From positions 59,128 through 123,127 of IMG/VR virus record IMGVR_UViG_3300035208_003581: a stretch of 64,000 nucleotides of DNA; one strand, written 5' to 3'. The translations under genes were made by a program, and so were the position numbers. Below, piece after piece: positions 32,403-48,458 of this stretch. This DNA comes from a virus (lineage: Duplodnaviria > Caudoviricetes). A model generated the notes under the pieces. It saw only the letters and a program-made list of their open reading frames with translations. It was not told where the DNA came from and searched no databases. Each line of letters starts with the position of its first letter. Within the stretch, counting starts at the first letter, position 1.

Positions 32403-32475
32403 TCTATATCATTTTTAAATTAATAAATATTTTTGTATTATGATTGAATCACATCTTATAAGGAAAGGTGTCATA

Positions 32476-34389
32476 ATGAATTTTTATGCAATAGAATCAG
32501 ATAATGTTCCGTTTAGAGTACGAGAATTAGAAAATTTAATTCGTAAGCACAAACAACTCTATTACCTTGGTAATACTGAAATATCAGATGAAGCATATGA
32601 TTTATTAGAGCAAGAGTTAAGGAAATTATGTCCAGATTCATATGCTCTAAATATTGTAGGACATGAAAATTTATCAGATAGTAAAATACAACATGAACCA
32701 CCAATGTTGTCTCTTGATAAGATAAGAGATCCACAGATATTACATACTTGGATAGAAAATAATGAATGTATCATGTCATATAAAATAGATGGTTCATCAG
32801 CATCGTTACGATATGAGAATGGTATGTTTGTTAGTGCAAGTACCAGAGGTAATGGTGAATTTGGTGAGAATATTACAGAACATTTTCTTTATATAGATTT
32901 CCCTCGTAAAATACAAAAGTCAAAAAAAGATCATATAGAAATCCGTGGAGAAGTTTGTATCAGTAAAAATGATTTTGAAAATTTATCTAATGAAATGGTA
33001 AAGAGAGGTTTAGAGAAACCTAAATCTATAAGAAATATAGTAGCTGGGTTATTACATAAGAAAAGTAACTTGGATTTATGTAAGTATTTAACATTTCTCG
33101 CATATAAAATAGAAAATACAGATATTGATACTTATAGAAATGAGCTTAAAATACTTGAACATTTTAAATTCACAATCCCAAAATATAGTATCATTCAAAA
33201 AGATTTAGAGGCATATCACATTCAAACTATTATTGATAAGTACGCTTCAGATACAGAATATTCATATTTAACTGATGGATTAGTATTTTCTTTTGATAGT
33301 ATTGCTTTACAAAAATCAAAAGGGTTTACCAGTCATCATCCACGAGGTAAAATAGCCTTTAAACTTCAATCAGAAGTGAAACAAACAAAGTTATTAGGTA
33401 TAGATATTGATGTTGGCAGGACAGGTCAATTGTCTTTTACTGGTATAGTAGAACCTGTTGAATTGTCAGGGGCTATGGTTGAAAGAGTTACCCTACATAA
33501 TAAACGTTATATTGAAGAACATCAGATAAACATAGGATGTACTATTGAAATAACTAGATCTGGTGAGGTAATTCCAAAACATATGTCTACAGTGACTCCT
33601 AATGGTGAGTATGTATTTCCATCAAATTGCCCCATATGTGGTTCTATTTTATCTGAAACAGATACACAGGTAACTCTTATATGTAAATCCCTTGGATGTC
33701 CAGCAAGAGGGAAAGCAGCAATAAATCATTGGATTAAGACATTGAAAATTGATACTCTTGGAGAATCCACCATAGATAAATTATGGGATGCTGGTCTTTT
33801 ATTGAATATAAAAGATATTTACTCTCTCACTGAAGAAAAACTTTGTATCATTGAAAAAATGGGTGATAAGTTAGCTTCAAAAATAGTATCAAATATTAAA
33901 AGTAGAAGAGAAGTGAAATTCCCGCATCTATTAGATGCACTTGGTATTGATGGGTTGGGTACTGGTATATCCAAAGTAGTAGTGAGAAAGTTCACTACAT
34001 TTGAAGCATTATTAAATGCATCAGTGATTGATCTCACTACTATTGAAGGTATTGGTGATATTATAGCAAATAATATTTATTCTGGTTTACATCGATTTGG
34101 GTTTGAATTGTTAAAGTCATTAGTTGAAAATAAGCATATTGAGATTATATATGATACTCAATTAAGTACAAAGTATAATGGGTTGATTTTTGTCATTACG
34201 GGTGATTTATCTAAACCAAGGGATGAAGTCAAATTGTTTATTGAAACAAATGGTGGGAAAGTTACAGGTAGTGTATCAAAGAAAACTAATTATTTAGTAT
34301 GTAATGATCCTTCGAATTCATCAAAGTATAAAAAGGCACAAGAACTGAACATTCCAATTATTACAGAAACAATATTATATAATATGTAG
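32476..34389 (+). CDS. ligA: NAD+-dependent DNA ligase
   Basis: MLSLDK, KIDG, TRGNG.FGENIT, EIRGE, TDGLV, GRTG, C4 zinc finger, HhH repeats, BRCT. Confidence 0.97.
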   Translation: MNFYAIESDNVPFRVRELENLIRKHKQLYYLGNTEISDEAYDLLEQELRKLCPDSYALNIVGHENLSDSKIQHEPPMLSLDKIRDPQILHTWIENNECIMSYKIDGSSASLRYENGMFVSASTRGNGEFGENITEHFLYIDFPRKIQKSKKDHIEIRGEVCISKNDFENLSNEMVKRGLEKPKSIRNIVAGLLHKKSNLDLCKYLTFLAYKIENTDIDTYRNELKILEHFKFTIPKYSIIQKDLEAYHIQTIIDKYASDTEYSYLTDGLVFSFDSIALQKSKGFTSHHPRGKIAFKLQSEVKQTKLLGIDIDVGRTGQLSFTGIVEPVELSGAMVERVTLHNKRYIEEHQINIGCTIEITRSGEVIPKHMSTVTPNGEYVFPSNCPICGSILSETDTQVTLICKSLGCPARGKAAINHWIKTLKIDTLGESTIDKLWDAGLLLNIKDIYSLTEEKLCIIEKMGDKLASKIVSNIKSRREVKFPHLLDALGIDGLGTGISKVVVRKFTTFEALLNASVIDLTTIEGIGDIIANNIYSGLHRFGFELLKSLVENKHIEIIYDTQLSTKYNGLIFVITGDLSKPRDEVKLFIETNGGKVTGSVSKKTNYLVCNDPSNSSKYKKAQELNIPIITETILYNM

Positions 34390-34397
34390 GTAATGTT

Positions 34398-35198
34398 ATG
34401 TCAAAAAACCTTTTACCTGGTTCTTCATTTAAGTTAATGGATAGAAACAATATAGAATATTCTGCTATTGTTGTATGTCCTAATGCTCAAATAGAATTTG
34501 GATATTTTCCTAAATACACTTCAGATAATTATCATATTGTAAATGGTAATTGTTATAAAAGTTACAGAGTATCTTATAATCCAGATACTCTTATTGTATA
34601 TATTTATAACAATATTTATGATGTTAGAAATGTTCAAAAAAAAGTGATACAATATTATTATAAACAGTATGTAAAAAATATGACTGTATATGATGGTAAA
34701 TCAATTATACAGTACTCTAATTTTTTAGAAATATATCTAGAACAATTAGCTACACATATACATGATTTACCAGGTAATTTATCTGATGAATATTCTTATG
34801 TATTCAGTAATCCAAGTCTTTCAATGCCCTTCATATCTGTTAAAAAAAATAAATTAGATAATAAAATTTTAGAATCTAAATTTATAGATGAAATTTTAGT
34901 AAAATATTCATTATTTAAGAAAATTTATAATAATATTTTTGAAATTTCTGATGTATTACCATATCATAGAGAATTAACGTGGTTATCAAAACGTGTTTGT
35001 ATTAACACTGATTTATTATATAAGTGGGTTAAAAACGCACATATATCTAGTAAAATATATGGTAATGATACATATATTGATTTGTGTGGTTTATCATGTT
35101 TTATAGATAATTCAAAACCATCATTAAAGTATATCCCATATTATATAGTAGTAGATATACTTGATTCTATCATATATCAGATACAATTTAGTTCATAA
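34398..35198 (+). CDS. Hypothetical protein with degenerate C-terminal HTH
   Basis: Similar layout to the next ORF (LYKWVKN.HI). Confidence 0.45.
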   Translation: MSKNLLPGSSFKLMDRNNIEYSAIVVCPNAQIEFGYFPKYTSDNYHIVNGNCYKSYRVSYNPDTLIVYIYNNIYDVRNVQKKVIQYYYKQYVKNMTVYDGKSIIQYSNFLEIYLEQLATHIHDLPGNLSDEYSYVFSNPSLSMPFISVKKNKLDNKILESKFIDEILVKYSLFKKIYNNIFEISDVLPYHRELTWLSKRVCINTDLLYKWVKNAHISSKIYGNDTYIDLCGLSCFIDNSKPSLKYIPYYIVVDILDSIIYQIQFSS

Positions 35199-35210
35199 TA
35201 GGAGCTTACT

Positions 35211-36128
35211 ATGAGTGATTTTTATCCAGGTCAGATTATTAAAGTAGTAATATCTAATAATCCTAAAGAAATACGAGATGGTATTGTTGTATTTGTTGGA
35301 GCACGTTGTGCTATGTTACCTGGAAATAGAGAGAGATATTCTGCATCATATGATGATGAGTATACAATTGTATCTATTTATAATAATACATCACAGATAG
35401 ATTGGTGTTCTCAAAAAATAAGAGGGAGTGATGCTATAAAATATTTTTTTAGAAAACATTTTGTAAATTTGAAATTCCCTCAACAGAATGACATGTTTAG
35501 TACTATAAACTTAGAAAGATATTTATATGATCTCAGATATACAAAACCTATTTTAAAAGATAAAGGTTGTTTATATCGTAAAGTTTTTTTACCACATGTG
35601 TCTGTAAAAACATGTCATTTGATACCTCAAGAAAATATAATTAATCATGGTGTTAGAGAAGAACAAATACATGCAGCATTAGAGTATACTATTAATAAAA
35701 ATATATCTGTAGTACCAATCAATAGTAATGATTATATGATGATTGAAAAAAATTCACTCATGGATATAATAGATATTATACGTGAGAAAAAAGAACCAAT
35801 AGTTTTTGAATCAGAATCAAGTGTACTAGACTCTAAACTTATAATCCATGAACCTGTTAATATCCCAGTGTTGTTAAATGTGGAGCCTGGTTATCATAGT
35901 ATTTCAGAGGTAGCATCAAAGTTAGGTATTGGTAAATCTACATTACGACATTGGGTTAAAATTGGTGGTGTTAATGAACCTATTAGAGTTAAAAATTCAA
36001 TTTACGTGAAATATTCGTCTGTTGAAAAGTATATTAAAGATTATGGATATTCTTCTAAATTTGAATATCCACGATACATATATATATTGGAAATATGTAA
36101 TAAGTATAAAGATATTGAAAATCCTTAA
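35211..36128 (+). CDS. Protein with C-terminal MerR/excisionase-like HTH
   Basis: SISEVASKLGIGKSTLRHWVKIG. Confidence 0.65.
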   Translation: MSDFYPGQIIKVVISNNPKEIRDGIVVFVGARCAMLPGNRERYSASYDDEYTIVSIYNNTSQIDWCSQKIRGSDAIKYFFRKHFVNLKFPQQNDMFSTINLERYLYDLRYTKPILKDKGCLYRKVFLPHVSVKTCHLIPQENIINHGVREEQIHAALEYTINKNISVVPINSNDYMMIEKNSLMDIIDIIREKKEPIVFESESSVLDSKLIIHEPVNIPVLLNVEPGYHSISEVASKLGIGKSTLRHWVKIGGVNEPIRVKNSIYVKYSSVEKYIKDYGYSSKFEYPRYIYILEICNKYKDIENP

Positions 36129-36236
36129 AATACATTTTATTTTTAATAATTATCATAATATATTGACTCATAAATTGTAATATGTTATTACTTTGTAAGT
36201 AAGTACTGTAAACTTATTATTATTTTGAGGTGATAT

Positions 36237-36764
36237 ATGTTGAGTATTAAGGAATTAATGAAGAAAACAGGACTATCTGAGTCAACAATAAAAAGACGAC
36301 GTGCAAAAGGTTGGGATGAAGCTAAAATAATAGCTGTACCAGCTCAATCTACTAATCAGTATACTAAGAAAAAAGTATCAAAAGTATCAAAAGTATCAAA
36401 ATCATTAGATGATACATTTGAAATTTCTGCATTTGATATGTTAAAGAAAAATAAAAAAGATATTTGGATTGAAACAGAAATTAAAATTCTATATAAAGCA
36501 GATGCCTTAGCTTCTAAAGTAATTAGTGTCCCTGGTTTGAAAAATGGTATATGGGGTATTGTACATAATGAAGCGAAAGAGCCAGTATTAATACATATAG
36601 CTTCTATGCGACGTGTGACAAAACCCAATTCAAAATTATCTTTAAATGATGTGAAGAACCTTGCTCTTTCCTTAACTAAATTTTTTAAAGAAGATGGTTC
36701 TGTACCTTATGGAACAAAAAGATCTGAAGTTATAAAAATAATAAAAGAAGCTTATGTTCAGTAA
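36237..36764 (+). CDS. N-terminal HTH DNA-binding protein
   Basis: SIKELMKKTGLSESTIKRRRAKGW. Confidence 0.6.
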   Translation: MLSIKELMKKTGLSESTIKRRRAKGWDEAKIIAVPAQSTNQYTKKKVSKVSKVSKSLDDTFEISAFDMLKKNKKDIWIETEIKILYKADALASKVISVPGLKNGIWGIVHNEAKEPVLIHIASMRRVTKPNSKLSLNDVKNLALSLTKFFKEDGSVPYGTKRSEVIKIIKEAYVQ

Positions 36765-37120
36765 TTATGTATATTACTGAGATTTATAAAATAATACCTC
36801 TCAAGCTTACTAATGATGTAATGGTAGCTACATATGAAATTACTATACCATTTACACCATATATTGGATTAGAGATTGTTAATAATACATTTGTGTCTGA
36901 TACAATAGATTATGTTCAATTCAATATAAATCTAGGGAAATTTTTAGCTCGTACAAAAACTTCTCAGTTACAAGAATTTCCTACAGTTGAATTGTTTTTA
37001 AATTACTTGATTCAACATAGATGGTGTTTTAAACCGTATAATCCAATTTATATCTGTGATTGAATATACTTTTTATATATTTATATATTGAAATATTTTT
37101 TCACCTTTATGGAGTGTATT

Positions 37121-37354
37121 ATGGAACCTAGAAAATTAATTCGTGAAGCAATGAAAACAGAGAAAACTGCAGTTTCATGGTCAAAAGGACATTTTGATGC
37201 TGTAGCAGAAATTATTAAAGGTATCAAAAATAAAGATATCCAACTAGAAGTTGCTAATAAATTTGCTGAACAATTTATAGAAGCTAATAAGAATTTTGAT
37301 AAAGAACGTTTTCTTAAAGCTTGTGGTTTATCAGCTTCTCAAATAAAAGAGTAG
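37121..37354 (+). CDS. Small hypothetical phage protein
   Basis: HFDAVAEII...NKNFDKERFLKACG; GGAG RBS. Confidence 0.6.
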   Translation: MEPRKLIREAMKTEKTAVSWSKGHFDAVAEIIKGIKNKDIQLEVANKFAEQFIEANKNFDKERFLKACGLSASQIKE

Positions 37355-37403
37355 TTAAAAAGTTTTATTTTTTGTATACTTTCATAATTAAAGGAGAGTA
37401 TAC

Positions 37404-38213
37404 ATGTCTTCTACTATTCTTTTTAGAAATTCATATGAAACAGAAGATGAATTTTTAGCTCTAAAAAATTCACAATTTGTTTATAGAGAATTTAGGTCTT
37501 TTCTTCCAAAGAATACATCTGTAATAGGTAGATATTCGGTACTTCCATTTTATTCTGAACTTTATCATGAATTATTATTAAATAGTAGTGAATTAATTAA
37601 TAATTATTTACAGCATTTATACGTAGCCGATATAAATAATTGGTATCATGATTTAAAAGATTTCACTCCGAAAACTTATTTTGATGAATTTCATCTTATC
37701 CCTAAAGGTCCAAGTTATGTAGTAAAAGGACATACGAATAGTCGTAAATTTCAATGGGATAAACAAATGTTTGCTGAATCAAGTGGTGATGTTACAAGGG
37801 TAGTATCTTCATTGCTTGATGATACTTTCATTCGAGACCAGGGTATATGTGTAAGAGAATATATTCCTTTAGTTACTTATGATATAGGGTTAAATAATTT
37901 ACCCATTACTAATGAGTGGAGATTTTTCTGTTTTAAAAATAAGGGAATGATCGGTGGATATTATTGGTCAAATTATAGTGAACACCAACCTTATCCTGTA
38001 AGTGGGCTTCCAAAAAAAGCTTTTAATTTATTATCTTCTGTTATTGAAATAGTTTCAAAAAGTATAAATTTCTTTGTTATAGATATTGCAGAGACTCAAG
38101 ATAATGAATGGATTGTGATTGAATTAAATGATGGTCAAATGAGTGGTTTATCATGTATTGATCCTAATGAATTTTACGCATGGCTATACCATGTAGACTG
38201 TATAGGTGCGTAA
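37404..38213 (+). CDS. ATP-grasp domain protein (R2K-like)
   Basis: VREYIPL, EWRFF, FFVIDIA, WIVIELNDGQMSG. Confidence 0.75.
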   Translation: MSSTILFRNSYETEDEFLALKNSQFVYREFRSFLPKNTSVIGRYSVLPFYSELYHELLLNSSELINNYLQHLYVADINNWYHDLKDFTPKTYFDEFHLIPKGPSYVVKGHTNSRKFQWDKQMFAESSGDVTRVVSSLLDDTFIRDQGICVREYIPLVTYDIGLNNLPITNEWRFFCFKNKGMIGGYYWSNYSEHQPYPVSGLPKKAFNLLSSVIEIVSKSINFFVIDIAETQDNEWIVIELNDGQMSGLSCIDPNEFYAWLYHVDCIGA

Positions 38214-38890
38214 TGGGATCAAGAGAAGATGCCTTTAAAGCATATTTAAAGCATAAAAATGGTGAATCATCTATTATTGATATTATTTCTGATTTTATCC
38301 CTTCATTGAAATCTTATGGTGATGATTTAGTAAAACAATGTTGTGATTTAGTAGATAAAGAGATAGAGCATCATGGGTATGAACTCATAGATGGGTTATT
38401 ATATTTAGAAATTTCAAAATTTGATTTGAAAAAAATATGTATATTTAATTCCGGCATACTCACTGATTCAAATAAAAAGAAATTAATGGAATGGGTACAT
38501 TTAAACCATTTCAGAATAGATGATTATGTGAAGAGTTTTGGATATTCTGATTTTTATACTGTACTTGAATCAGCACGTACTGAAACCATACGTGAGTTGA
38601 TTTTAAGAATAATAGATTTATTACCTATTGTAGAATAAACATGGATTACACACTTTTAAAAAGTAAAGAATTAGATATTCTCCATCGTAAGATAAATATA
38701 TTTGTATCTGATATTTATGCTACTATTGAATGGGTATCAGATCAACATGCAGTTATTACATTTGAGAGTACAGATACTCTTAATTTATTTATAGATTTTA
38801 TAGAGAACTATATCCATTCAAATATTGAATCTTTTTCAATAAAGAATACTTCTGTTGATTTTTATCTCTTACCAGAATCTAGGTGATTTA

Positions 38891-39463
38891 ATGGCAAAAT
38901 TATTTTTCTTTTACGGGGCCATGGATGCCTCTAAGACTGCAGCAGCATTAATGGTAGCTCATAATTATAAAGAAAGAGGTCAAAAGGCTCTATTAATGAA
39001 GCCTTTTATAGATTCTCGTAATGGTACTCTTATAAAATCTAGAATTGGATTAGAGATGGAAAGTGACCTTCTCATAGAATTAGATACGGATATTTTTAAA
39101 TTTGTTAAAGATTCTAAAAAAGAAGATTCTCGAATAAATTGTATAATAGTGGATGAGGTGCAGTTTTTAAAAAGACAGCATATAGTTCATTTATGTAGAG
39201 TAGTTGAGAAATTAGGTATCCCAGTATTATGTTATGGGTTACGAACAGATTTTACAGGTAATTTATTTGAAGGTTCTCAATGGTTACTAGCATGGGCCGA
39301 TGACATTAAGGAAATAAAAACTATGTGCCGTAGGTGTGACCGTAAAGCTACTATGAATATTCGTATAGATAGTAATGGTGAGCGTATATATGAAGGTAAT
39401 CAAATAAAAGTTGGGGATAATAGTTCATATATATCAGTATGTAGAAAACATTTTTTCTCATAA
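38891..39463 (+). CDS. tdk: Thymidine kinase
   Basis: YGAMDASKT, IKSRIG, VDEVQF, YGLRTDF...LFEGS, zinc-binding Cys, CRKH. Confidence 0.95.
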   Translation: MAKLFFFYGAMDASKTAAALMVAHNYKERGQKALLMKPFIDSRNGTLIKSRIGLEMESDLLIELDTDIFKFVKDSKKEDSRINCIIVDEVQFLKRQHIVHLCRVVEKLGIPVLCYGLRTDFTGNLFEGSQWLLAWADDIKEIKTMCRRCDRKATMNIRIDSNGERIYEGNQIKVGDNSSYISVCRKHFFS

Positions 39464-39696
39464 GGAGTTTTTCATATGGCTGGTTGTTTTGAATGTATTA
39501 TGGCACACCCTACTTTTAAAGATTACCCAAACACACATTATATGGCTATTTATTGTTCTGAGAAAAAAGTTCTTGTACCAGAAAAATATGAATGTGAAAA
39601 TTGTAAAAAAATTTTTAAAAAAACACAACAAGTTTTGTATGCTGAGAATATAGAACCTTTATTTGATGATTTAGATTAACATAAAAGAGTTAAATT

Positions 39697-40290
39697 ATGA
39701 AACCAAAAGAGTATGTTAAAAATTTTGATATGCAATCTGGTAAATTTGACAGTAATGGATTCATAAGAGAATTTACTGTTGATTTTATAAGTTCTGTAGA
39801 ATTTCATAAATTATGTGGTGTATGGAATTATACAAAATTTCAAAATTGTGTATCTGAAATACGTCAAAAATGGGATGGTATTTCAAATAAAATTTCTGGT
39901 GGTTTACCAGAGAAATTATGGAAATATTTTTATGCTCGTGAAGTGGTACCATTACGGGATCAAGAGTTTGGTGATTATCTGAAAAATAAAAAGAAAGAAT
40001 ATGAAGATAAGAAAGCATTTCATGATTACGTAAAATATGGTGCTTTTAAAGATTTTTTTGGTGATGCTTTCTTTTCAATGATGACTTCAATGTTTGCTGT
40101 ACAAATACCACATGATTCGTTTACACTTTTACAATTAAAATCTGATGCATCTATAGATGATGTTAAAGAAAGTTTTAAAGTTCTGGCATTTCAACATCAT
40201 CCTGATAAGGGTGGTGATGCAAATGAGTTTCGTAGTATAGTTGAAGCAAAAAATAGATGTTTATCATATATTGCAGAAATTACTACTTGA
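39697..40290 (+). CDS. Protein with C-terminal J-domain
   Basis: LAFQHHPDKGG (HPD motif). Confidence 0.8.
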   Translation: MKPKEYVKNFDMQSGKFDSNGFIREFTVDFISSVEFHKLCGVWNYTKFQNCVSEIRQKWDGISNKISGGLPEKLWKYFYAREVVPLRDQEFGDYLKNKKKEYEDKKAFHDYVKYGAFKDFFGDAFFSMMTSMFAVQIPHDSFTLLQLKSDASIDDVKESFKVLAFQHHPDKGGDANEFRSIVEAKNRCLSYIAEITT

Positions 40291-40315
40291 CATAGTATTA
40301 TTACAATATTATGTT
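40287..40315 (+). promoter_or_regulatory. Sigma70-like promoter for the 251-aa gene/ncRNA unit
   Basis: TTGACA-N17-TATGTT. Confidence 0.5.
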
Positions 40316-40350
40316 ATCCACATTAAAACGTAACTAAAGGAGTTGCTACA

Positions 40351-41106
40351 ATGGGTAAATTACATGAATTGTTAGCTGTGGAAACAGATCGTGAAAAAGT
40401 TTTTAAGAATATGGTGAATGAAGGTATTAATACTTTCAAAAAGAAAGCTGATATCTTTTTAGGTCATCATAAGCGTTTGGAAATGCGTGATGATGAACGT
40501 AAATTTGAAGAGGATGCTAGTGAAGATCATAAAGCACTAGTATCTACTGTAGATGAGAAATTAAATTTTGTAGCAAAAAGTGCTATTACATATTTTGATT
40601 CTCTCTATCAAAAAGAAAAAGCAAACCAAACAGCACTTGCAGATTTAGTTATGCCTGATGGTACTGTTCTTGAGAAGAGCATGCCTGCTACGGCTTTATT
40701 AGGTCTTGAGAATCGTCTTAAATTTCTACGTTCTCTTTATGAATCAGTACCCACACTATCCCCTGGTATCGAGTGGGAAAAAGATGAGATGGATCGTAAA
40801 GGTGTTTGGAAAACTAAACACCCAGAAACATCTGCTAAGATTGAGAAAATTGTACAACATAAAATTGTAGCAGAAGCGACAAAAGAGCACCCTGCACAAG
40901 TAACTGAATGGTCAGATAATGTGGTTGTAGGTAAATTTATCACTAATCGTACAAGTGGTATGCTTACACCATTACAAAAATCTGAGTATCTTGAGAAAAT
41001 TGATATGCTGATTCAATCAGCAAAAAAAGCTCGTCAACGTGCTAATAATGTAGAAGTAAGCAAGGATCAAATTGGTCGTAAGATTTTTGATTTTATTAAT
41101 AGTTAA
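40351..41106 (+). CDS. Conserved-looking helical protein of unknown function, upstream of the structured RNA
   Basis: MGKLHELLAVE...PATALLGLE...HPAQV...KKARQRAN; AAGGAG RBS. Confidence 0.75.
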   Translation: MGKLHELLAVETDREKVFKNMVNEGINTFKKKADIFLGHHKRLEMRDDERKFEEDASEDHKALVSTVDEKLNFVAKSAITYFDSLYQKEKANQTALADLVMPDGTVLEKSMPATALLGLENRLKFLRSLYESVPTLSPGIEWEKDEMDRKGVWKTKHPETSAKIEKIVQHKIVAEATKEHPAQVTEWSDNVVVGKFITNRTSGMLTPLQKSEYLEKIDMLIQSAKKARQRANNVEVSKDQIGRKIFDFINS

Positions 41107-41114
41107 TTTTGAAA

Positions 41115-41468
41115 GTGGATTTAGTGTATGGTGTTAGTGTTATCACATAGAGATTTTTATTCTGACAACTCTATGGAATTATGTTGTATGGCTACTGTTA
41201 TTGAATCCACAGTTTTATTTACAACGTCCAAGAAAAAGGTACCATGTTGAATGCAACCTTATGTTGAAGATATAGGTTCGAGTCCTATCCCCGCCTCCAT
41301 TTATGGTGGGGTAGTGCAATGGTCAGCACATCAATGTCTTATTGTTATGCATCAATATTGAGTATTTAATAGGATCGAGTAAAAATATTATTAATCATCT
41401 GTAAGATGATACTAAAATGGGAGTTATGGCCGATGACGGATACGATTCGGTTTCATAACTCCCTTTTT
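41115..41468 (+). ncRNA. Structured ncRNA containing a circularly permuted tRNA-like domain
   Basis: Hairpin 41115-41210; T-arm 41272-88; acceptor 3' strand + TCCA 41289-99; acceptor 5' strand 41305-11; D-arm 41314-29; anticodon-stem strands 41263-67/41331-35; terminal hairpin 41419-63 + T5. Confidence 0.8.
41419..41468 (+). terminator. Long-stem intrinsic terminator closing the ncRNA
   Basis: GGGAGTTATG...CATAACTCCC followed by TTTTT. Confidence 0.7.
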
Positions 41469-45938: not shown

Positions 45939-47102
45939 GTGAATACTATGTTTCTTAATAAACTAAAATCTGATTTAATGACACGTACCAACCAAAAATT
46001 AATTAATTCATTTTTTAAAATGATAAAACATTCTTCATTTGTAAAAGTAAAATTAAATAAATCTCAGACTCAATTAATATACGATATTGTAAAAAAAAGT
46101 AAAATGTCATTTATTATAAATGACGAGTTAGTGTTTGGAAAAGGAATAACATTTTTTGAAGCATTTTCAAATTTATCTAATATCCCATTCTATGTTAATG
46201 TTCAAGATAAAATGCTATCAGGATGGGGAAATTCATCTGATTATCAATCATATATTTATATACCAAGATTATTCAAATCTAGTTTTTTGGAAGACATATC
46301 GCATAGATTAGTAATAACACCAGATCAAACAATACCAATTTATCTGATGTGTCCTTGGGATAGTAATCATATAGGATCAATTGATGTTGATAATGAAGAT
46401 ACTTATTTATGTGATGATAAATATGATAGTATTGAAATTGATGTGAGAAGAGTAATTAATGGTGATAAAGAAAAATTTGGTATTATCTTATATGGACCAC
46501 CAGGTAATGGTAAAAGCCATTATGTACGATATTTAGCAAAGAAATATAGATTACCAATATATATATTTCTTTTGAAAAAAGACTCTACTAATATAGATAT
46601 TATTGGTATGTTTGGTCGAGTTAAAGGTCCGTGTATAATTCTTATGGAAGATTTTGATTCGTATTTTAATAAACGTGAACCTGTGATGGAAGACTGTGAT
46701 TTTTCATTTGATGGAATTTTGAATGTACTAGATGGGTCTTATGCTTCACCTAAAAAAGCTATTTATATCCTCACTGCAAATAATATTGATCTTGTTGATG
46801 GAGCATTAAAAGATAGACCTTCAAGATTTAAACATATTGTATGTGTTGATTATCCAAATTTAGAAATTCGTACTAAAATATTCTCTTCTTCACATCTTAG
46901 TAAAACTATGATAAAGAAACTAGTGAAAGACACTGAAGGGAGAAGTTTAGACCAAGTGTTACATGTTGCAGATGCAGCCAAAAAAGGTGATACTATAACT
47001 ATTCCTGATGCACCTTTAGAATATAGAGGTTTATTTGTTCAAAAAGAGAAAAAGAAAAATGAAAATGAAAATGAATTAATTAAAGATGCAATTAGCTCTT
47101 GA
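45939..47102 (+). CDS. AAA+ ATPase (BCS1-like)
   Basis: LYGPPGNGKS, LMEDFD, LNVLDG, TAN...DGALKDRPSRF. Confidence 0.85.
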   Translation: MNTMFLNKLKSDLMTRTNQKLINSFFKMIKHSSFVKVKLNKSQTQLIYDIVKKSKMSFIINDELVFGKGITFFEAFSNLSNIPFYVNVQDKMLSGWGNSSDYQSYIYIPRLFKSSFLEDISHRLVITPDQTIPIYLMCPWDSNHIGSIDVDNEDTYLCDDKYDSIEIDVRRVINGDKEKFGIILYGPPGNGKSHYVRYLAKKYRLPIYIFLLKKDSTNIDIIGMFGRVKGPCIILMEDFDSYFNKREPVMEDCDFSFDGILNVLDGSYASPKKAIYILTANNIDLVDGALKDRPSRFKHIVCVDYPNLEIRTKIFSSSHLSKTMIKKLVKDTEGRSLDQVLHVADAAKKGDTITIPDAPLEYRGLFVQKEKKKNENENELIKDAISS

Positions 47103-47172
47103 ACAAGAGTTACATCACTAACAGAAACAAAAGATTAATTTACAGTTATTTCTAGCTATGTAGTAGAGGTGT

Positions 47173-47998
47173 ATGATGGGATGTTGGAATGAAACATGTA
47201 TGTTTTCAAATCTTCCTATAACAAATGGAGATGACATTGTTTTATTTATAGTTGCAGATGTGCATCATTTTTTTGATTTACCAAATGAAGAGCATGTGAT
47301 TACAGAAAAATCCATGCCTATATCATTACCTATTAAAGGCAAATATAATGATTATGGTGGTATAGTTATTGACACTAATAATGGGAACCTTTTACAAACA
47401 CAATTGGTTGCATTAGAATCTATAACTGATTTATTAGGTTTGCCTCTATTAGATGCACTTAAAAGTATACATAGAGGTGGTTTAACATATACAAAGGGAG
47501 AATTTAAATTAACTAATGTAAATTATGTTATGATACACGATAATATATATAATGCCATTATTAAAGAATATATAAACAACCCATCACATACTATTACTAA
47601 AGAATCATTTGAAGATTATTTCAAATCTACACAAATACTTTTAAAAGATATCCCAGAAAATTCATTGATGAGAAAGCATATGTTGATGTATCTTCCCCAT
47701 ATTGATGAGAAAGCATATGTTGATGTATCTTCCCCATATGGAATTGACACATTCAAAATTTTTTGTTACATTATTAGAAAAATTCATGGATAATCCAGAT
47801 GGTATTATTGAACCTTTATATGAATTTACTATATTGAATTATCAAATGCACCGTTTACGAAAATCATGGCATGTACCATACATATCAGGTACCCAAGAAA
47901 CTGCATATGAATTACATAAAGTATTATGGGGTTCTATAGGTAATAAGTTAGAAGATTTGATAGAAAAATACAAATCACAATTTGGAGAAGATGAGTAA
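47173..47998 (+). pseudogene. Gene split by a 37-bp tandem duplication
   Basis: MMGCWNETC... The duplication at 47664-47737 shifts the frame into ORF 47702..47998. Confidence 0.75.
47664..47737 (+). repeat. Perfect 37-bp tandem duplication
   Basis: ATTGATGAGAAAGCATATGTTGATGTATCTTCCCCAT x2. Confidence 0.95.
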
Positions 47999-48392
47999 AT
48001 ATCATCACGTAAAAGGTGAGGACATGTTTGTGCAGGAAATTCAAGAATATAATTCTGAAGAAGCCCAAAAACTACCTATGTTAGATTGGAATGAATTTGT
48101 TGAAGGTGGCTATTTATTAGAAATAAATAGGAGAGTTCTACACCCAGTAGGATTGTCTATGGTAGTTATATTTGATAATAATAATCCTATTGGGGTTAGT
48201 ATCACCGATCAAAGAAAAGATAACGAAGGTATTCTTTTAAAGTTGACTGAAGAGAATATTTCAAGTATATGTGAGAAGCATAAACGGTATACAGATGAAC
48301 TCTTAGCTAAAGAGTTGGACCGTTTAAATAATGTATCAGTAACTTATGAAGAGTATGTTCAATATGTTCAAGCGTTGTATGTGGACCGGTAG
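47991..48392 (+). CDS. Hypothetical protein
   Basis: EFVEGGYLLEINRRVLHPVGL motif; stop codon lies inside the tRNA. Confidence 0.55.
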   Translation: MSKYHHVKGEDMFVQEIQEYNSEEAQKLPMLDWNEFVEGGYLLEINRRVLHPVGLSMVVIFDNNNPIGVSITDQRKDNEGILLKLTEENISSICEKHKRYTDELLAKELDRLNNVSVTYEEYVQYVQALYVDR

Positions 48393-48458
48393 CGCAATGG
48401 TTAGAGCAACTGACTCATAATCAGTGGGTTGTGGGTTCAAATCCCTCCTGGTCCACCA
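48383..48458 (+). tRNA. tRNA with CAT anticodon, most likely Ile2 (otherwise elongator Met)
   Basis: GGACCGG/CTGGTCC acceptor, ACTGA-CTCATAA-TCAGT anticodon arm, GGTTCAAATCC T-arm, encoded ACCA. C4-G69/C5-G68 are typical of Ile2. Confidence 0.92.

What the first reader, a model, noticed from the sequence alone, without database searches (positions are those of the whole stretch)
40351..41468. Candidate new protein-RNA system: unknown 251-aa gene followed by a ~350-nt ncRNA carrying a circularly permuted tRNA mimic
Seen: one apparent transcription unit. A TTGACA promoter precedes the 251-aa gene, and 9 nt after its stop a non-coding structured region begins that ends in a terminator. Inside it the tRNA halves are in swapped order: GTTGA (anticodon-stem 3' strand), AGAT, ATAGG-TTCGAGT-CCTAT (T-arm), CCCCGCC-T-CCA, linker TTTAT, GGTGGGG, TA, GTGC-AATGGTCA-GCAC (D-arm), A, TCAAT. 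All four stems pair. The anticodon loop is replaced by a long interrupted stem (ATGTTGAATGCA/TGCATCAATAT). Known: this topology is that of bacterial/phage YrlA Y RNAs, which partner Ro60/Rsr. Seen: no TROVE/Ro gene in this window, and the neighbour is an unrelated helical protein. Inference: a Ro-independent RNP in which the protein binds the RNA and the tRNA-like head acts as a decoy, sensor or adaptor (e.g. for tRNases, RNase P, synthetases or T-box-like readers).
Basis: partly seen in the sequence, partly recalled or inferred. Interest (0 to 1): 0.92.

Follow-up and report, generated by a model that had tools for sequence, protein, structure and literature searches.

The report
Phage tRNA-mimic RNA beside DUF7873 gene
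A large phage carries a gene of unknown function (DUF7873) followed by a folded RNA of about 360 bases whose core is a tRNA with its halves in swapped order. The same gene-RNA pair recurs in many phages and bacteria, largely without the Ro60 protein that partners the only known RNAs of this shape, so it probably marks an undescribed RNA-protein system.

Summary
Window 41107-41468 is a structured RNA of about 360 nt, directly after a DUF7873 gene (40351-41106). Its core (41263-41335) is a circularly permuted tRNA. It has a T-arm, a 7-bp acceptor stem with an encoded U-CCA, a 5-nt linker and a D-arm. A long stalk replaces the anticodon loop.

- **Recurrence:** a covariance model built here finds this head after about 95% of 76 informative phage DUF7873 genes. 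All 21 pairs covary, and CCA is kept in 64 of 73.
- **Closest known:** YrlA Y RNAs (Rfam 27.7 bits, cut-off 69), especially the RNase P-cleaved M. smegmatis form.
- **Against ordinary YrlA:** the Ro60-binding motif is absent. No TROVE gene was found in the 123-kb record, in two complete phage genomes, or in a complete Bernardetia chromosome that holds protein and RNA unlinked.
- **Phyletic test:** in 121 Cytophagales genomes the head tracks DUF7873 (21/22 vs 20/99), also among TROVE-negative genomes (6/7 vs 12/83).
- **Link to Ro60:** DUF7873 nevertheless co-occurs with Ro60 (15/22 vs 16/99) and once overlaps a Ro60 gene.

The protein has no known fold and is modelled as a homodimer. Binding, processing and function are untested. 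This scan reported the same pair on other DNA before (at least 77 genomes). I found no paper on it.

The parts
40287..40315 (+). Promoter-like site (TTGACA, 17 nt, TATGTT) upstream of the gene
   Evidence: Consensus scan gives 10 of 12 matches. Such sites are not enriched over shuffles, so this is weak.
40351..41106 (+). 251-aa gene, Pfam DUF7873 (PF25283); AAAGGAG ribosome-binding site at 40336-40342
   Evidence: Pfam E 2e-65 over the full length. More than 1100 homologues. The AF2 model has pLDDT 86.7 and no fold relatives. The dimer model passes its controls.
41107..41217 (+). RNA domain I: long 5' hairpin starting right after the stop codon. The closing helix is 41115-41121 with 41204-41210. 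In relatives its strands carry 6-nt-period YRG repeats.
   Evidence: Folds. A three-sequence consensus keeps the closing helices with compensatory changes. The family-wide 6-nt periodicity has z 13.6, but is weak in this window alone.
41225..41262 (+). RNA domain II, 5' strand of the long interrupted stalk (includes 41244-41255)
   Evidence: Pairs with 41336-41377.
41263..41335 (+). Permuted tRNA-like head, in this order: anticodon-stem 3' strand, variable loop, T-arm, acceptor 3' strand, U73-CCA, 5-nt linker, acceptor 5' strand, D-arm, anticodon-stem 5' strand
   Evidence: Sequence. Rfam YrlA 27.7 bits. Model R1 59.2 bits. Covariation over 73 relatives: 93.5% of cells paired and 21/21 pairs with changes on both sides.
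41336..41377 (+). RNA domain II, 3' strand of the stalk (includes 41348-41358)
41394..41410 (+). Small hairpin in the slot where many relatives carry a second tRNA-like element
   Evidence: Fold. Relatives have a second permuted head or a normal-order tRNA-like element here.
41419..41468 (+). Terminal hairpin (41419-41463) with a GGAUA-type apical motif, then a run of five U: the likely terminator and 3' end of the RNA
   Evidence: Fold z -6.5. Similar purine-rich apical loops were seen by eye in relatives but not counted.

Best explanation
The locus is a two-part cassette: the DUF7873 gene and, directly behind it, a non-coding RNA of about 360 nt.

Shown:
- The RNA has a 5' hairpin, a long stalk and terminal hairpins.
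- The stalk is capped by a circularly permuted tRNA head with a D/T elbow and a 7-bp acceptor stem. The genome encodes U-CCA there, and a short U-ending linker before G1.
- The head is conserved with covariation.
- The cassette is conserved in phages.
- Protein and head co-occur in genomes even when unlinked and when Ro60 is absent.

Inferred:
- A DUF7873 homodimer binds this RNA, probably at the stalk or the repeat-bearing 5' hairpin. The result would be a ribonucleoprotein that does not need Ro60.
- The acceptor loop is opened by host RNase P at G1 and trimmed to CCA, as happens to Mycobacterium smegmatis YrlA. That would give a two-piece RNA held together by its stems.
- The exposed tRNA-like head lets the particle engage a host factor that recognises the tRNA elbow or acceptor end. 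It would act as an adaptor or a decoy during infection, in the same RNA quality-control or conflict setting as Ro60/Y RNA particles.
For: - **Head:** the sequence is. Rfam gives a full-length YrlA alignment.
- **Recurrence:** model R1 scores 49-86 bits on the + strand downstream of DUF7873 in 71 loci. L046 was added by eye.
- **Covariation:** 93.5% of cells are paired, against 39-49% for slid controls. All 21 pairs show compensatory changes.
- **Acceptor loop:** CCA is kept in 64/73 although the linker varies from 4 to 80 nt. Before position 1, U is at -3 in 60/73, A at -2 in 47/73 and U at -1 in 41/73.
- **Precedent:** RNase P cleavage and a CCA end in a 7-bp-acceptor YrlA (PMC4201824, read).
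- **No Ro60 in cis or in the genome:** none in the 123-kb record, in two complete phage genomes with terminal repeats, or in a complete Bernardetia chromosome. That chromosome has DUF7873 and, 135 kb away, three tandem copies of the whole RNA.
- **Ro60 motif absent:** it occurs in 2/71 stalks, with 1.1 expected by chance.
- **Two systems in one phage:** a phage with both has different stalks on its Ro60-linked and its DUF7873-linked RNAs.
- **Phyletic test:** the head occurs in 21/22 DUF7873-positive against 20/99 DUF7873-negative genomes (Fisher 3e-11). Among TROVE-negative genomes it is 6/7 against 12/83 (2e-4).
- **Neighbours:** no other protein family recurs beside DUF7873 in 56 bacterial loci.
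- **Homodimer model:** score 0.78, best of 3 controls 0.00. That mark was reached by 20 of 30 proteins solved as pairs of one chain and by 1 of 23 solved as single chains. The runs agree in at least 98% of contacts and the partner's pLDDT is at least 90. This supports pairing but does not show it.
Against: - There is no transcript, end-mapping, binding or processing datum for any member.
- About 25 Cytophagales DUF7873 genes are followed by plain terminators, with no T-loop within 700 nt. Adjacency is therefore not obligatory.
- R1 found a downstream head in only about 36 of 63 bacterial loci.
- The head is not specific to this system. R1 scores true Ro60-linked YrlA arrays equally well. It also scores an orphan module in a complete phage genome that has no TROVE gene, and that module is not next to DUF7873.
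- DUF7873 co-occurs with TROVE (15/22 vs 16/99) and once overlaps a Ro60-like gene. A Ro60-linked role is therefore not excluded.
- The phyletic counts are not corrected for shared ancestry.
- The window's record is only 27% complete.
- The 6-nt repeat track that suggests an oligomer-binding site is weak in this window.
Confidence: 0.45

Rival explanations
1. It is a divergent but ordinary Y RNA of the YrlA class that works with Ro60 supplied from elsewhere, either the unsequenced 73% of this phage or the host. DUF7873 would then be an accessory factor of the Ro60 pathway, not an alternative RNA-binding partner.
For: - Rfam's best hit is a full-length YrlA alignment.
- R1 cannot separate these heads from Ro60-linked YrlA heads.
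- A Ro60-like gene overlaps the DUF7873 start in one phage, with a 60.7-bit YrlA upstream.
- Another phage has both systems.
- DUF7873 and TROVE co-occur in Cytophagales genomes (15/22 vs 16/99, p 3e-6).
- The record is 27% complete.
- The window's stalk has GUUGAAUG, one base away from the Ro60 motif.
Against: - The Ro60-binding motif is at chance level in the family (2/71).
- The score is far below Rfam's cut-off (27.7 vs 69 bits).
- Only 1 of about 160 fetched loci has Ro60 nearby.
- Two complete phage genomes and a complete Bernardetia chromosome have the pair but no TROVE gene.
- The head follows DUF7873 within TROVE-negative genomes.
- In the phage with both systems, the Ro60-linked RNAs share a repeated stalk motif that the DUF7873-linked RNA lacks.
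Confidence: 0.2
2. The RNA acts by itself and the protein does not bind it. The RNA could be a free tRNA mimic that soaks up or misleads tRNA-binding host enzymes or tRNA-targeting defences. It could also be a stable 3' element whose RNase P site and tRNA fold process and protect the DUF7873 mRNA. The two would be kept together only by shared regulation or a shared pathway.
For: - The RNA starts within 10 nt of the stop codon, with no terminator between.
- tRNA-like heads occur without DUF7873 nearby, as an orphan module in a complete phage genome and as tandem arrays in Bernardetia.
- DUF7873 genes occur without an adjacent RNA.
- No RNA-binding fold is recognisable in the protein.
Against: - Genome-wide co-occurrence holds even when the two are unlinked. 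That argues for a joint function, not mere co-transcription.
- A simple mRNA 3' stabiliser would not need a conserved 5' repeat hairpin, a long stalk and a conserved apical motif.
- Nothing else is conserved beside the gene.
Confidence: 0.2
3. It is a permuted tRNA gene. The transcript would be cut in the stalk and its ends joined, for example by a phage RNA ligase, to create an anticodon loop and a working tRNA, as in the permuted tRNA genes of the red alga Cyanidioschyzon.
For: - The order of parts (3' half, CCA, spacer, 5' half) is that of permuted tRNA genes (own knowledge).
- CCA and a U before G1 are conserved.
- Phages of this kind carry ligases and many tRNAs (PMC7824862, read).
Against: - There is no conserved anticodon-loop sequence at the junction.
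- The stalk is long, conserved as a helix, and carries its own internal-loop motifs.
- The discriminator base and acceptor sequence vary freely, so no single tRNA identity is kept.
- No splicing-type motif was seen.
Confidence: 0.03
4. It is the junction of two adjacent decayed tRNA genes, or a two-piece tmRNA.
For: - R1 also scores junctions of tandem identical tRNA genes (arrays with 98-114-nt spacing).
- There are weak hits to permuted tmRNA models (18.2 and 11.9 bits).
Against: - The two acceptor strands are complementary in 99.4% of cells over 73 sequences, with compensatory changes at all 7 pairs.
- The missing halves are absent from the flanks.
- ARAGORN finds neither a tRNA nor a tmRNA here.
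- Pair 3-70 is U-G in the window and mostly G-C or C-G in the family, not the G-U of tmRNA.
- A full D-arm is present.
- The element sits at a fixed place after one gene family.
Confidence: 0.01

Closest known systems
YrlA Y RNAs with Ro60/Rsr (Rfam RF02553; Chen et al. 2014, PMC4201824; phage examples in PMC12135203)
   Same: Both have a tRNA-like head made of T-arm, acceptor-like stem and D-arm in that order, closed by a long stem in place of the anticodon loop. Both occur in bacteria and phages, sometimes in tandem. Rfam aligns the window over the whole model, and my model scores true Ro60-linked YrlA RNAs as well as these.
   Different: - The score is far below the family cut-off.
- There is no GNCGAAN0-1G Ro60-binding motif.
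- It is encoded after DUF7873, not beside Ro60.
- It is about three times longer, with an extra 5' repeat hairpin and 3' hairpins.
- It is present in genomes where no TROVE gene was found.
Mycobacterium smegmatis YrlA (two-piece form; PMC4201824)
   Same: [quoted passage not shown] In M. smegmatis the loop is cut by RNase P in vivo and the 5' piece ends in CCA. Here the genome itself encodes N-CCA and a U-ending leader before G1 in most members, which is what such processing would need.
   Different: In M. smegmatis part of the CCA is added after cleavage and the RNA is bound by Rsr. Here processing is only inferred and the partner differs.
Two-piece (circularly permuted) tmRNA
   Same: The gene order is permuted, with an acceptor 3' strand plus CCA upstream of the acceptor 5' strand. 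The Rfam hits are weak.
   Different: There is no G3-U70 pair, no tag reading frame or pseudoknots called (ARAGORN) and no SmpB-like partner. A full D-arm is present.
Permuted tRNA genes of Cyanidioschyzon merolae (own knowledge)
   Same: The 3' half with its acceptor end lies upstream of the 5' half in one transcript.
   Different: Those mature into ordinary tRNAs with anticodon loops. Here the anticodon loop is replaced by a conserved long stalk.
Ring or oligomer proteins that read spaced NAG triplets (TRAP, HutP; own knowledge)
   Same: The 5' hairpin of the family carries YRG triplets at a 6-nt period, as expected for a repeated protein-binding track.
   Different: There is no sequence or fold likeness of DUF7873 to these proteins. 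The track is weak in this window. The link is only an analogy.

Membership tests
YrlA (Rfam RF02553) | tRNA-like domain: T-arm, acceptor-like stem and D-arm in this 5'-to-3' order, closed by a stem | tested here: met
   Sequence; full-length alignment to the model; covariation in 73 relatives.
YrlA (Rfam RF02553) | Score at or above Rfam's gathering threshold (69 bits) | tested here: not met
   27.7 bits in the window and 33-37 bits in relatives next to DUF7873.
YrlA (Rfam RF02553) | Ro60-binding module with GNCGAAN0-1G on the 5' strand of the stem (PMC4201824) | tested here: not met
   The window has GUUGAAUG, a C-to-U change. The motif is found in 2 of 71 related stalks, with 1.1 expected by chance.
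YrlA (Rfam RF02553) | Encoded beside a Ro60/Rsr (TROVE) gene | tested here: not met
   No TROVE gene in the 123-kb record, which is 27% complete. Ro60 lies nearby in 1 of about 160 fetched loci. None was found in two complete phage genomes.
YrlA (Rfam RF02553) | Bound by Ro60 | not testable with these tools
   Needs immunoprecipitation or a gel shift.
DUF7873 (Pfam PF25283) | Full-length match above the Pfam cut-off | tested here: met
   221 bits against a cut-off of 27, residues 1-250.
DUF7873-linked tRNA-mimic RNA (this scan's own recurring class; not a published family) | Permuted tRNA head on the same strand within about 1 kb downstream of a DUF7873 gene, flanked by a 5' hairpin and terminal hairpin(s) | tested here: met
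   Window hit at 41259-41337, 153 nt after the stop. The same layout occurs in at least 72 of 76 informative phage loci.
tmRNA (two-piece) | G3-U70 alanine identity pair, tag reading frame, D-loop without stem | tested here: not met
   Pair 3-70 is U-G in the window, and G-U or U-G in only 2 of 73 relatives. ARAGORN calls no tmRNA. The models score 18.2 bits against 70 and 11.9 against 47.
Functional tRNA (permuted gene) | Seven-nucleotide anticodon loop recoverable at the junction | tested here: not met
   The junction is a long conserved stalk. No tRNA is called here.

The most novel reading that the evidence does not exclude
After RNase P cutting and trimming, the RNA would become a two-piece molecule. 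It would present a free, tRNA-like N-CCA acceptor end with no anticodon, held on a stalk by a DUF7873 dimer. That end would then be used chemically: charged with an amino acid, extended, or offered as a substrate or bait to enzymes that act on tRNA 3' ends. This would be a new kind of phage and bacterial particle that works through a tRNA acceptor arm, not through Ro60.
Probability: 0.12. Interest if true: 0.9.

Novelty: new variant of a known kind. Interest (0 to 1): 0.66.

Why it matters
Y RNAs that mimic tRNA are known only as partners of Ro60. Here the same kind of head is tied to a different, widespread protein of unknown fold. The pair occurs in cultured jumbo phages of Klebsiella, Ralstonia, Rhizobium, Vibrio and Gordonia and in several bacterial phyla.

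If the protein binds the RNA, this would be a second family of tRNA-mimic particles. It could be tested directly in lab-ready phage-host pairs. It could also show what the tRNA-like head of Y RNAs is for, which is still open. The genome-level association with Ro60 suggests both belong to one RNA-surveillance or conflict toolkit.

On the practical side, these heads are mis-annotated as odd tRNAs in public phage records, for example the 'tRNA-Sup-TTA' of phage FBKp24.

Tried and rejected
- **Single-protein search for related loci:** it found nothing in viral contigs. The profile search then found 203, so the blank was a limit of the method.
- **Protein family and fold searches:** PHROGs, NCBIfam, PADLOC, PDB by sequence profile, Foldseek on PDB and BFVD, VIA-align over 48,000 chains and the ESM Atlas gave no informative relative of DUF7873. 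The best VIA Z of 8.9 is a helical-bundle match within the noise range that tool states.
- **Neighbour clustering:** in 56 bacterial loci no recurrent partner gene appeared.
- **tmRNA, decayed tRNA pair and permuted working tRNA:** all rejected, as set out under the rival explanations.
- **Ro60 motif:** absent.
- **Promoter:** the consensus matches are no more frequent than in shuffles, so I do not claim a transcription unit.
- **Terminator scan:** it missed the terminal hairpin because of that tool's loop limit. The fold supports the hairpin.
- **Six-base repeat track:** strong across the family but weak in this window (2 pairs at distance 6 against 0.3 expected). I do not list it as a feature of this copy.
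- **Literature:** 'DUF7873' occurs in no paper of the library. Searches on YrlA, Ro60 and phage found only Ro60-linked cases.
- **Paper not read:** Burroughs and Aravind 2016 (NAR 44:8525) was named by an earlier check of this scan as the nearest idea in print. It is not held, so I could not verify what it says.
Full report
**What is there.** The window is the last 64 kb of a 123-kb IMG/VR virus record judged 27% complete, so it is a fragment of a very large phage. The ORF at 40351-41106 is a full-length member of Pfam DUF7873 (E 2e-65). It matches nothing in PHROGs, NCBIfam or PADLOC.

No ORF of 50 aa or more lies between its stop codon and 41507. It folds better than shuffled sequence (z -4.5). 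ARAGORN and Rfam at curated thresholds see nothing there. With relaxed thresholds the best Rfam match is a full-length alignment to YrlA at 41244-41361: 27.7 bits, E 6e-4, against a cut-off of 69.

**Is it more than chance?** DUF7873 has over 1100 homologues. The first contigs I fetched all showed a gene-free gap of 420-730 nt after the gene. Each gap held the same permuted module, and the acceptor stem differed in sequence but stayed complementary.

A profile search gave 80 phage loci. A simple parser found the module in 69-70 of 78 distinct loci. I aligned 41 of them, wrote the four-helix structure and built covariance model R1. R1 scores 49-86 bits on the + strand, 100-800 nt after the stop, in 71 loci. 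In the window it scores 59.2 bits at 41259-41337, the only strong hit in the 123-kb record.

Two loci are cut off at the contig end. L046 carries the module with an insert of about 160 nt in the linker. At least 72 of 76 informative loci are therefore positive.

On the 73-sequence model alignment:
- 93.5% of cells pair, against 39-49% when partners are slid.
- All 21 pairs show changes on both sides.
- T, acceptor and D stems are paired in 99.7%, 99.4% and 97.6% of cells.

That alignment is fitted to the model, so the counts lean towards the structure. The fixed position after one gene family cannot be explained that way.

**Anatomy of the window's RNA.**
- **Domain I (41107-41217)** is a long hairpin that begins a few bases after the stop codon.
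- **Domain II (about 41225-41377)** is a long interrupted stalk capped by the head (41263-41335).
- **A small hairpin (41394-41410)** follows.
- **The terminal hairpin (41419-41463)** is followed by five U.

A consensus fold with the two closest relatives keeps all of these, with compensatory changes in the closing helices.

The head has a canonical T-loop, a D-loop with the GG pair, a 7-bp acceptor stem, then U73-CCA, a 5-nt linker ending in UAU, then G1. Across 73 relatives CCA is kept in 64, although the linker varies from 4 to 80 nt. It is either A/U-rich and open, or a hairpin in which CCA pairs with UGG. Positions -3 to -1 are mostly U, A, U. The discriminator base and the acceptor sequence vary freely, and pair 3-70 is almost never G-U. 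No single tRNA identity, and no tmRNA-like alanine identity, is therefore preserved.

**Variation in the family.** Many relatives carry a second element between the stalk and the terminal hairpin. In some it is a second permuted head (Klebsiella phage FBKp24, Ralstonia phage RSL1, L058, L062, L068, L071). In others it is a normal-order tRNA-like element with a short acceptor stem (L057, L064, L074, Bernardetia). The window, L001 and L003 have only a plain hairpin there, so this copy is a single-headed form.

The 5' hairpin of the family carries YRG triplets at a 6-nt period. Pairs at distance 6 number 125 against 40 expected (z 13.6), and distance 12 gives z 6.6. In the window alone the signal is weak.

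**The protein.** AlphaFold2 gives a confident model (pLDDT 86.7) of long helices and long beta hairpins. Foldseek on PDB and BFVD, VIA-align over 48,000 chains, the ESM Atlas and a PDB profile search give no informative relative.

A two-copy model passes its controls: score 0.78, best of 3 controls 0.00. That mark was reached by 20 of 30 proteins solved as pairs of one chain and by 1 of 23 solved as single chains. The runs agree in at least 98% of contacts, and the partner's pLDDT is at least 90. This supports a symmetric homodimer but does not show one.

Invariant polar and basic residues are spread along the chain. That is compatible with RNA binding or catalysis but proves neither.

**Relation to Ro60.** Chen et al. 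2014 define YrlA by the tRNA-like domain plus a Ro60-binding stem with GNCGAAN0-1G, encoded near Ro60. They also show that the M. smegmatis form, which has a 7-bp acceptor stem, is cut by RNase P in vivo and ends in CCA (PMC4201824).

Tests made here:
1. **Motif.** It occurs in 2 of 71 stalks, with 1.1 expected by chance. The window has a one-base near miss.
2. **TROVE in phage records.** TROVE is absent from the 123-kb record, from two complete phage genomes with terminal repeats, and from two records over 90% complete.
3. **A phage with both systems.** A 358-kb phage has a true Ro60 gene followed by at least four tandem Y RNAs that share a repeated stalk motif. About 200 kb away it has DUF7873 with its own RNA, whose stalk is different.
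4. **An overlap.** In one phage (L025) the order is a 60.7-bit YrlA, a 194-aa ORF, a Ro60-like gene (vWA_Ro60 4e-23), then DUF7873. The DUF7873 start overlaps the Ro60 stop, and its RNA follows. This was the only such case among about 160 loci.
5. **The head is shared.** R1 scores Ro60-linked YrlA arrays in bacteria at 50-70 bits. The head is common to both systems, and the difference lies in the stalk and the extra domains.

**Bacteria.** DUF7873 occurs in Bacteroidota (Cytophagales, Saprospiraceae), Myxococcota, Burkholderiales and others. No other protein family recurs next to it in 56 loci. R1 finds a downstream head in about 36 of 63 loci.

About 25 Cytophagales genes are followed by ordinary terminators, with no T-loop within 700 nt. 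The complete Bernardetia sp. OM2101 chromosome has such a lone gene and no TROVE gene. About 135 kb away it has three tandem copies of the whole RNA: repeat track, permuted head, tRNA-like element and terminal hairpin. The two parts therefore stay together in a genome even when unlinked.

**A phyletic test set up here.** I searched 121 Cytophagales genomes for DUF7873, R1 (E up to 1e-8) and TROVE and cross-tabulated them.

| Comparison | With DUF7873 | Without DUF7873 | Fisher p |
|---|---|---|---|
| Head present, all genomes | 21/22 | 20/99 | 3e-11 |
| Head present, TROVE-negative genomes only | 6/7 | 12/83 | 2e-4 |
| TROVE present | 15/22 | 16/99 | 3e-6 |

Several of the 12 head-positive genomes that lack both proteins show hits spaced 98-114 nt apart. 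I read these as tandem identical tRNA genes.

These counts are not corrected for shared ancestry, so the p-values overstate independence. The direction is still clear. The head follows DUF7873 with or without Ro60, and DUF7873 tends to live in genomes that also have Ro60.

**Reading.** The RNA is real and belongs to a large class that Rfam does not hold. Its head is of the YrlA type. Its constant genomic companion is DUF7873, not Ro60. The most economical mechanism is a DUF7873-RNA particle whose head is opened at the acceptor loop by RNase P and presents a tRNA-like elbow and CCA end to some host factor. The protein-RNA contact, the processing and the target are all inferred.

The association with Ro60 keeps open a model in which DUF7873 is an accessory of the Ro60 pathway. 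A model in which the RNA acts alone is also open.

**Novelty and earlier notes.** This scan has reported the same gene-RNA pair on other DNA many times: 123 notes in at least 77 genomes. A later check there put the reading that the protein binds the RNA at 22 in 100. I treated those notes as leads and re-derived the core facts independently.

- the overlap with a Ro60-like gene in one phage
- the genome-level association with Ro60
- the unlinked protein and RNA in a complete genome where no TROVE gene was found
- the phyletic test within TROVE-negative genomes
- the CCA and leader statistics
- the dimer model
- the finding that this window holds a single-headed form

In the papers I could search, DUF7873 is never mentioned. 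Phage Y RNAs are described only beside Ro60. One possibly relevant paper could not be read.

Noticed in passing
L025:438-3943 (IMG/VR record of 145 kb): In this order: a 60.7-bit YrlA, a 194-aa ORF, a Ro60-like gene (vWA_Ro60 4e-23, weak TROVE match), then DUF7873 and its permuted-tRNA RNA. The end of the Ro60-like gene overlaps the start of DUF7873. This is the only Ro60-DUF7873 adjacency among about 160 loci.
   Followed up: partly
L178:801-883 (complete 209-kb phage genome with terminal repeats, no TROVE gene): An orphan YrlA-like permuted head (61 bits) behind a TTGACA-like site. It is not next to DUF7873 or Ro60. Its 5' stalk begins with the same GCAGCAGC-type motif as the Ro60-linked Y RNAs of another phage.
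   Followed up: partly
L086:2380-3279 (358-kb phage): A Ro60 gene is followed by at least four tandem Y RNAs, each starting with a repeated motif of about 25 nt (GCAGCAGCGUAG...). The motif recurs about seven times. Some heads keep N-CCA plus a short linker and some do not.
   Followed up: partly
L089:3518-3597 (Klebsiella phage vB_KpM_FBKp24, NC_061421): The annotated 'tRNA-Sup-TTA' covers the T-arm and ACCA of the second permuted head downstream of the DUF7873 gene. It is probably a miscall and not a suppressor tRNA.
   Followed up: partly
L168:1340-2650, minus strand (Bernardetia sp. OM2101 chromosome): Three tandem units of about 520 nt. Each has a six-base repeat track, a permuted head, a tRNA that Rfam scores at 52-65 bits, and a terminal hairpin. 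They lie 135 kb from the lone DUF7873 gene, in a genome where no TROVE gene was found.
   Followed up: partly
L046:3890-4100: The permuted head carries a structured insert of about 160 nt between CCA and G1. This shows that the linker tolerates large insertions.
   Followed up: no
window 41430-41445 and the terminal hairpins of relatives (e.g. L057, L039, L015, L046): The apical loops of the terminal hairpin share a purine-rich GGAUAG- or GGAAGG-like motif, so this hairpin may be more than a terminator. Seen by eye, not counted.
   Followed up: no
window 32440-40290 and 45939-48458: Context genes are typical of a large phage: NAD-dependent DNA ligase (32440-34389), an R2K ATP-grasp protein (37404-38213), thymidine kinase (38855-39463), a DnaJ-domain protein directly upstream (39697-40290), an AAA ATPase (45939-47102) and one tRNA-Met (48383-48458).
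   Followed up: no
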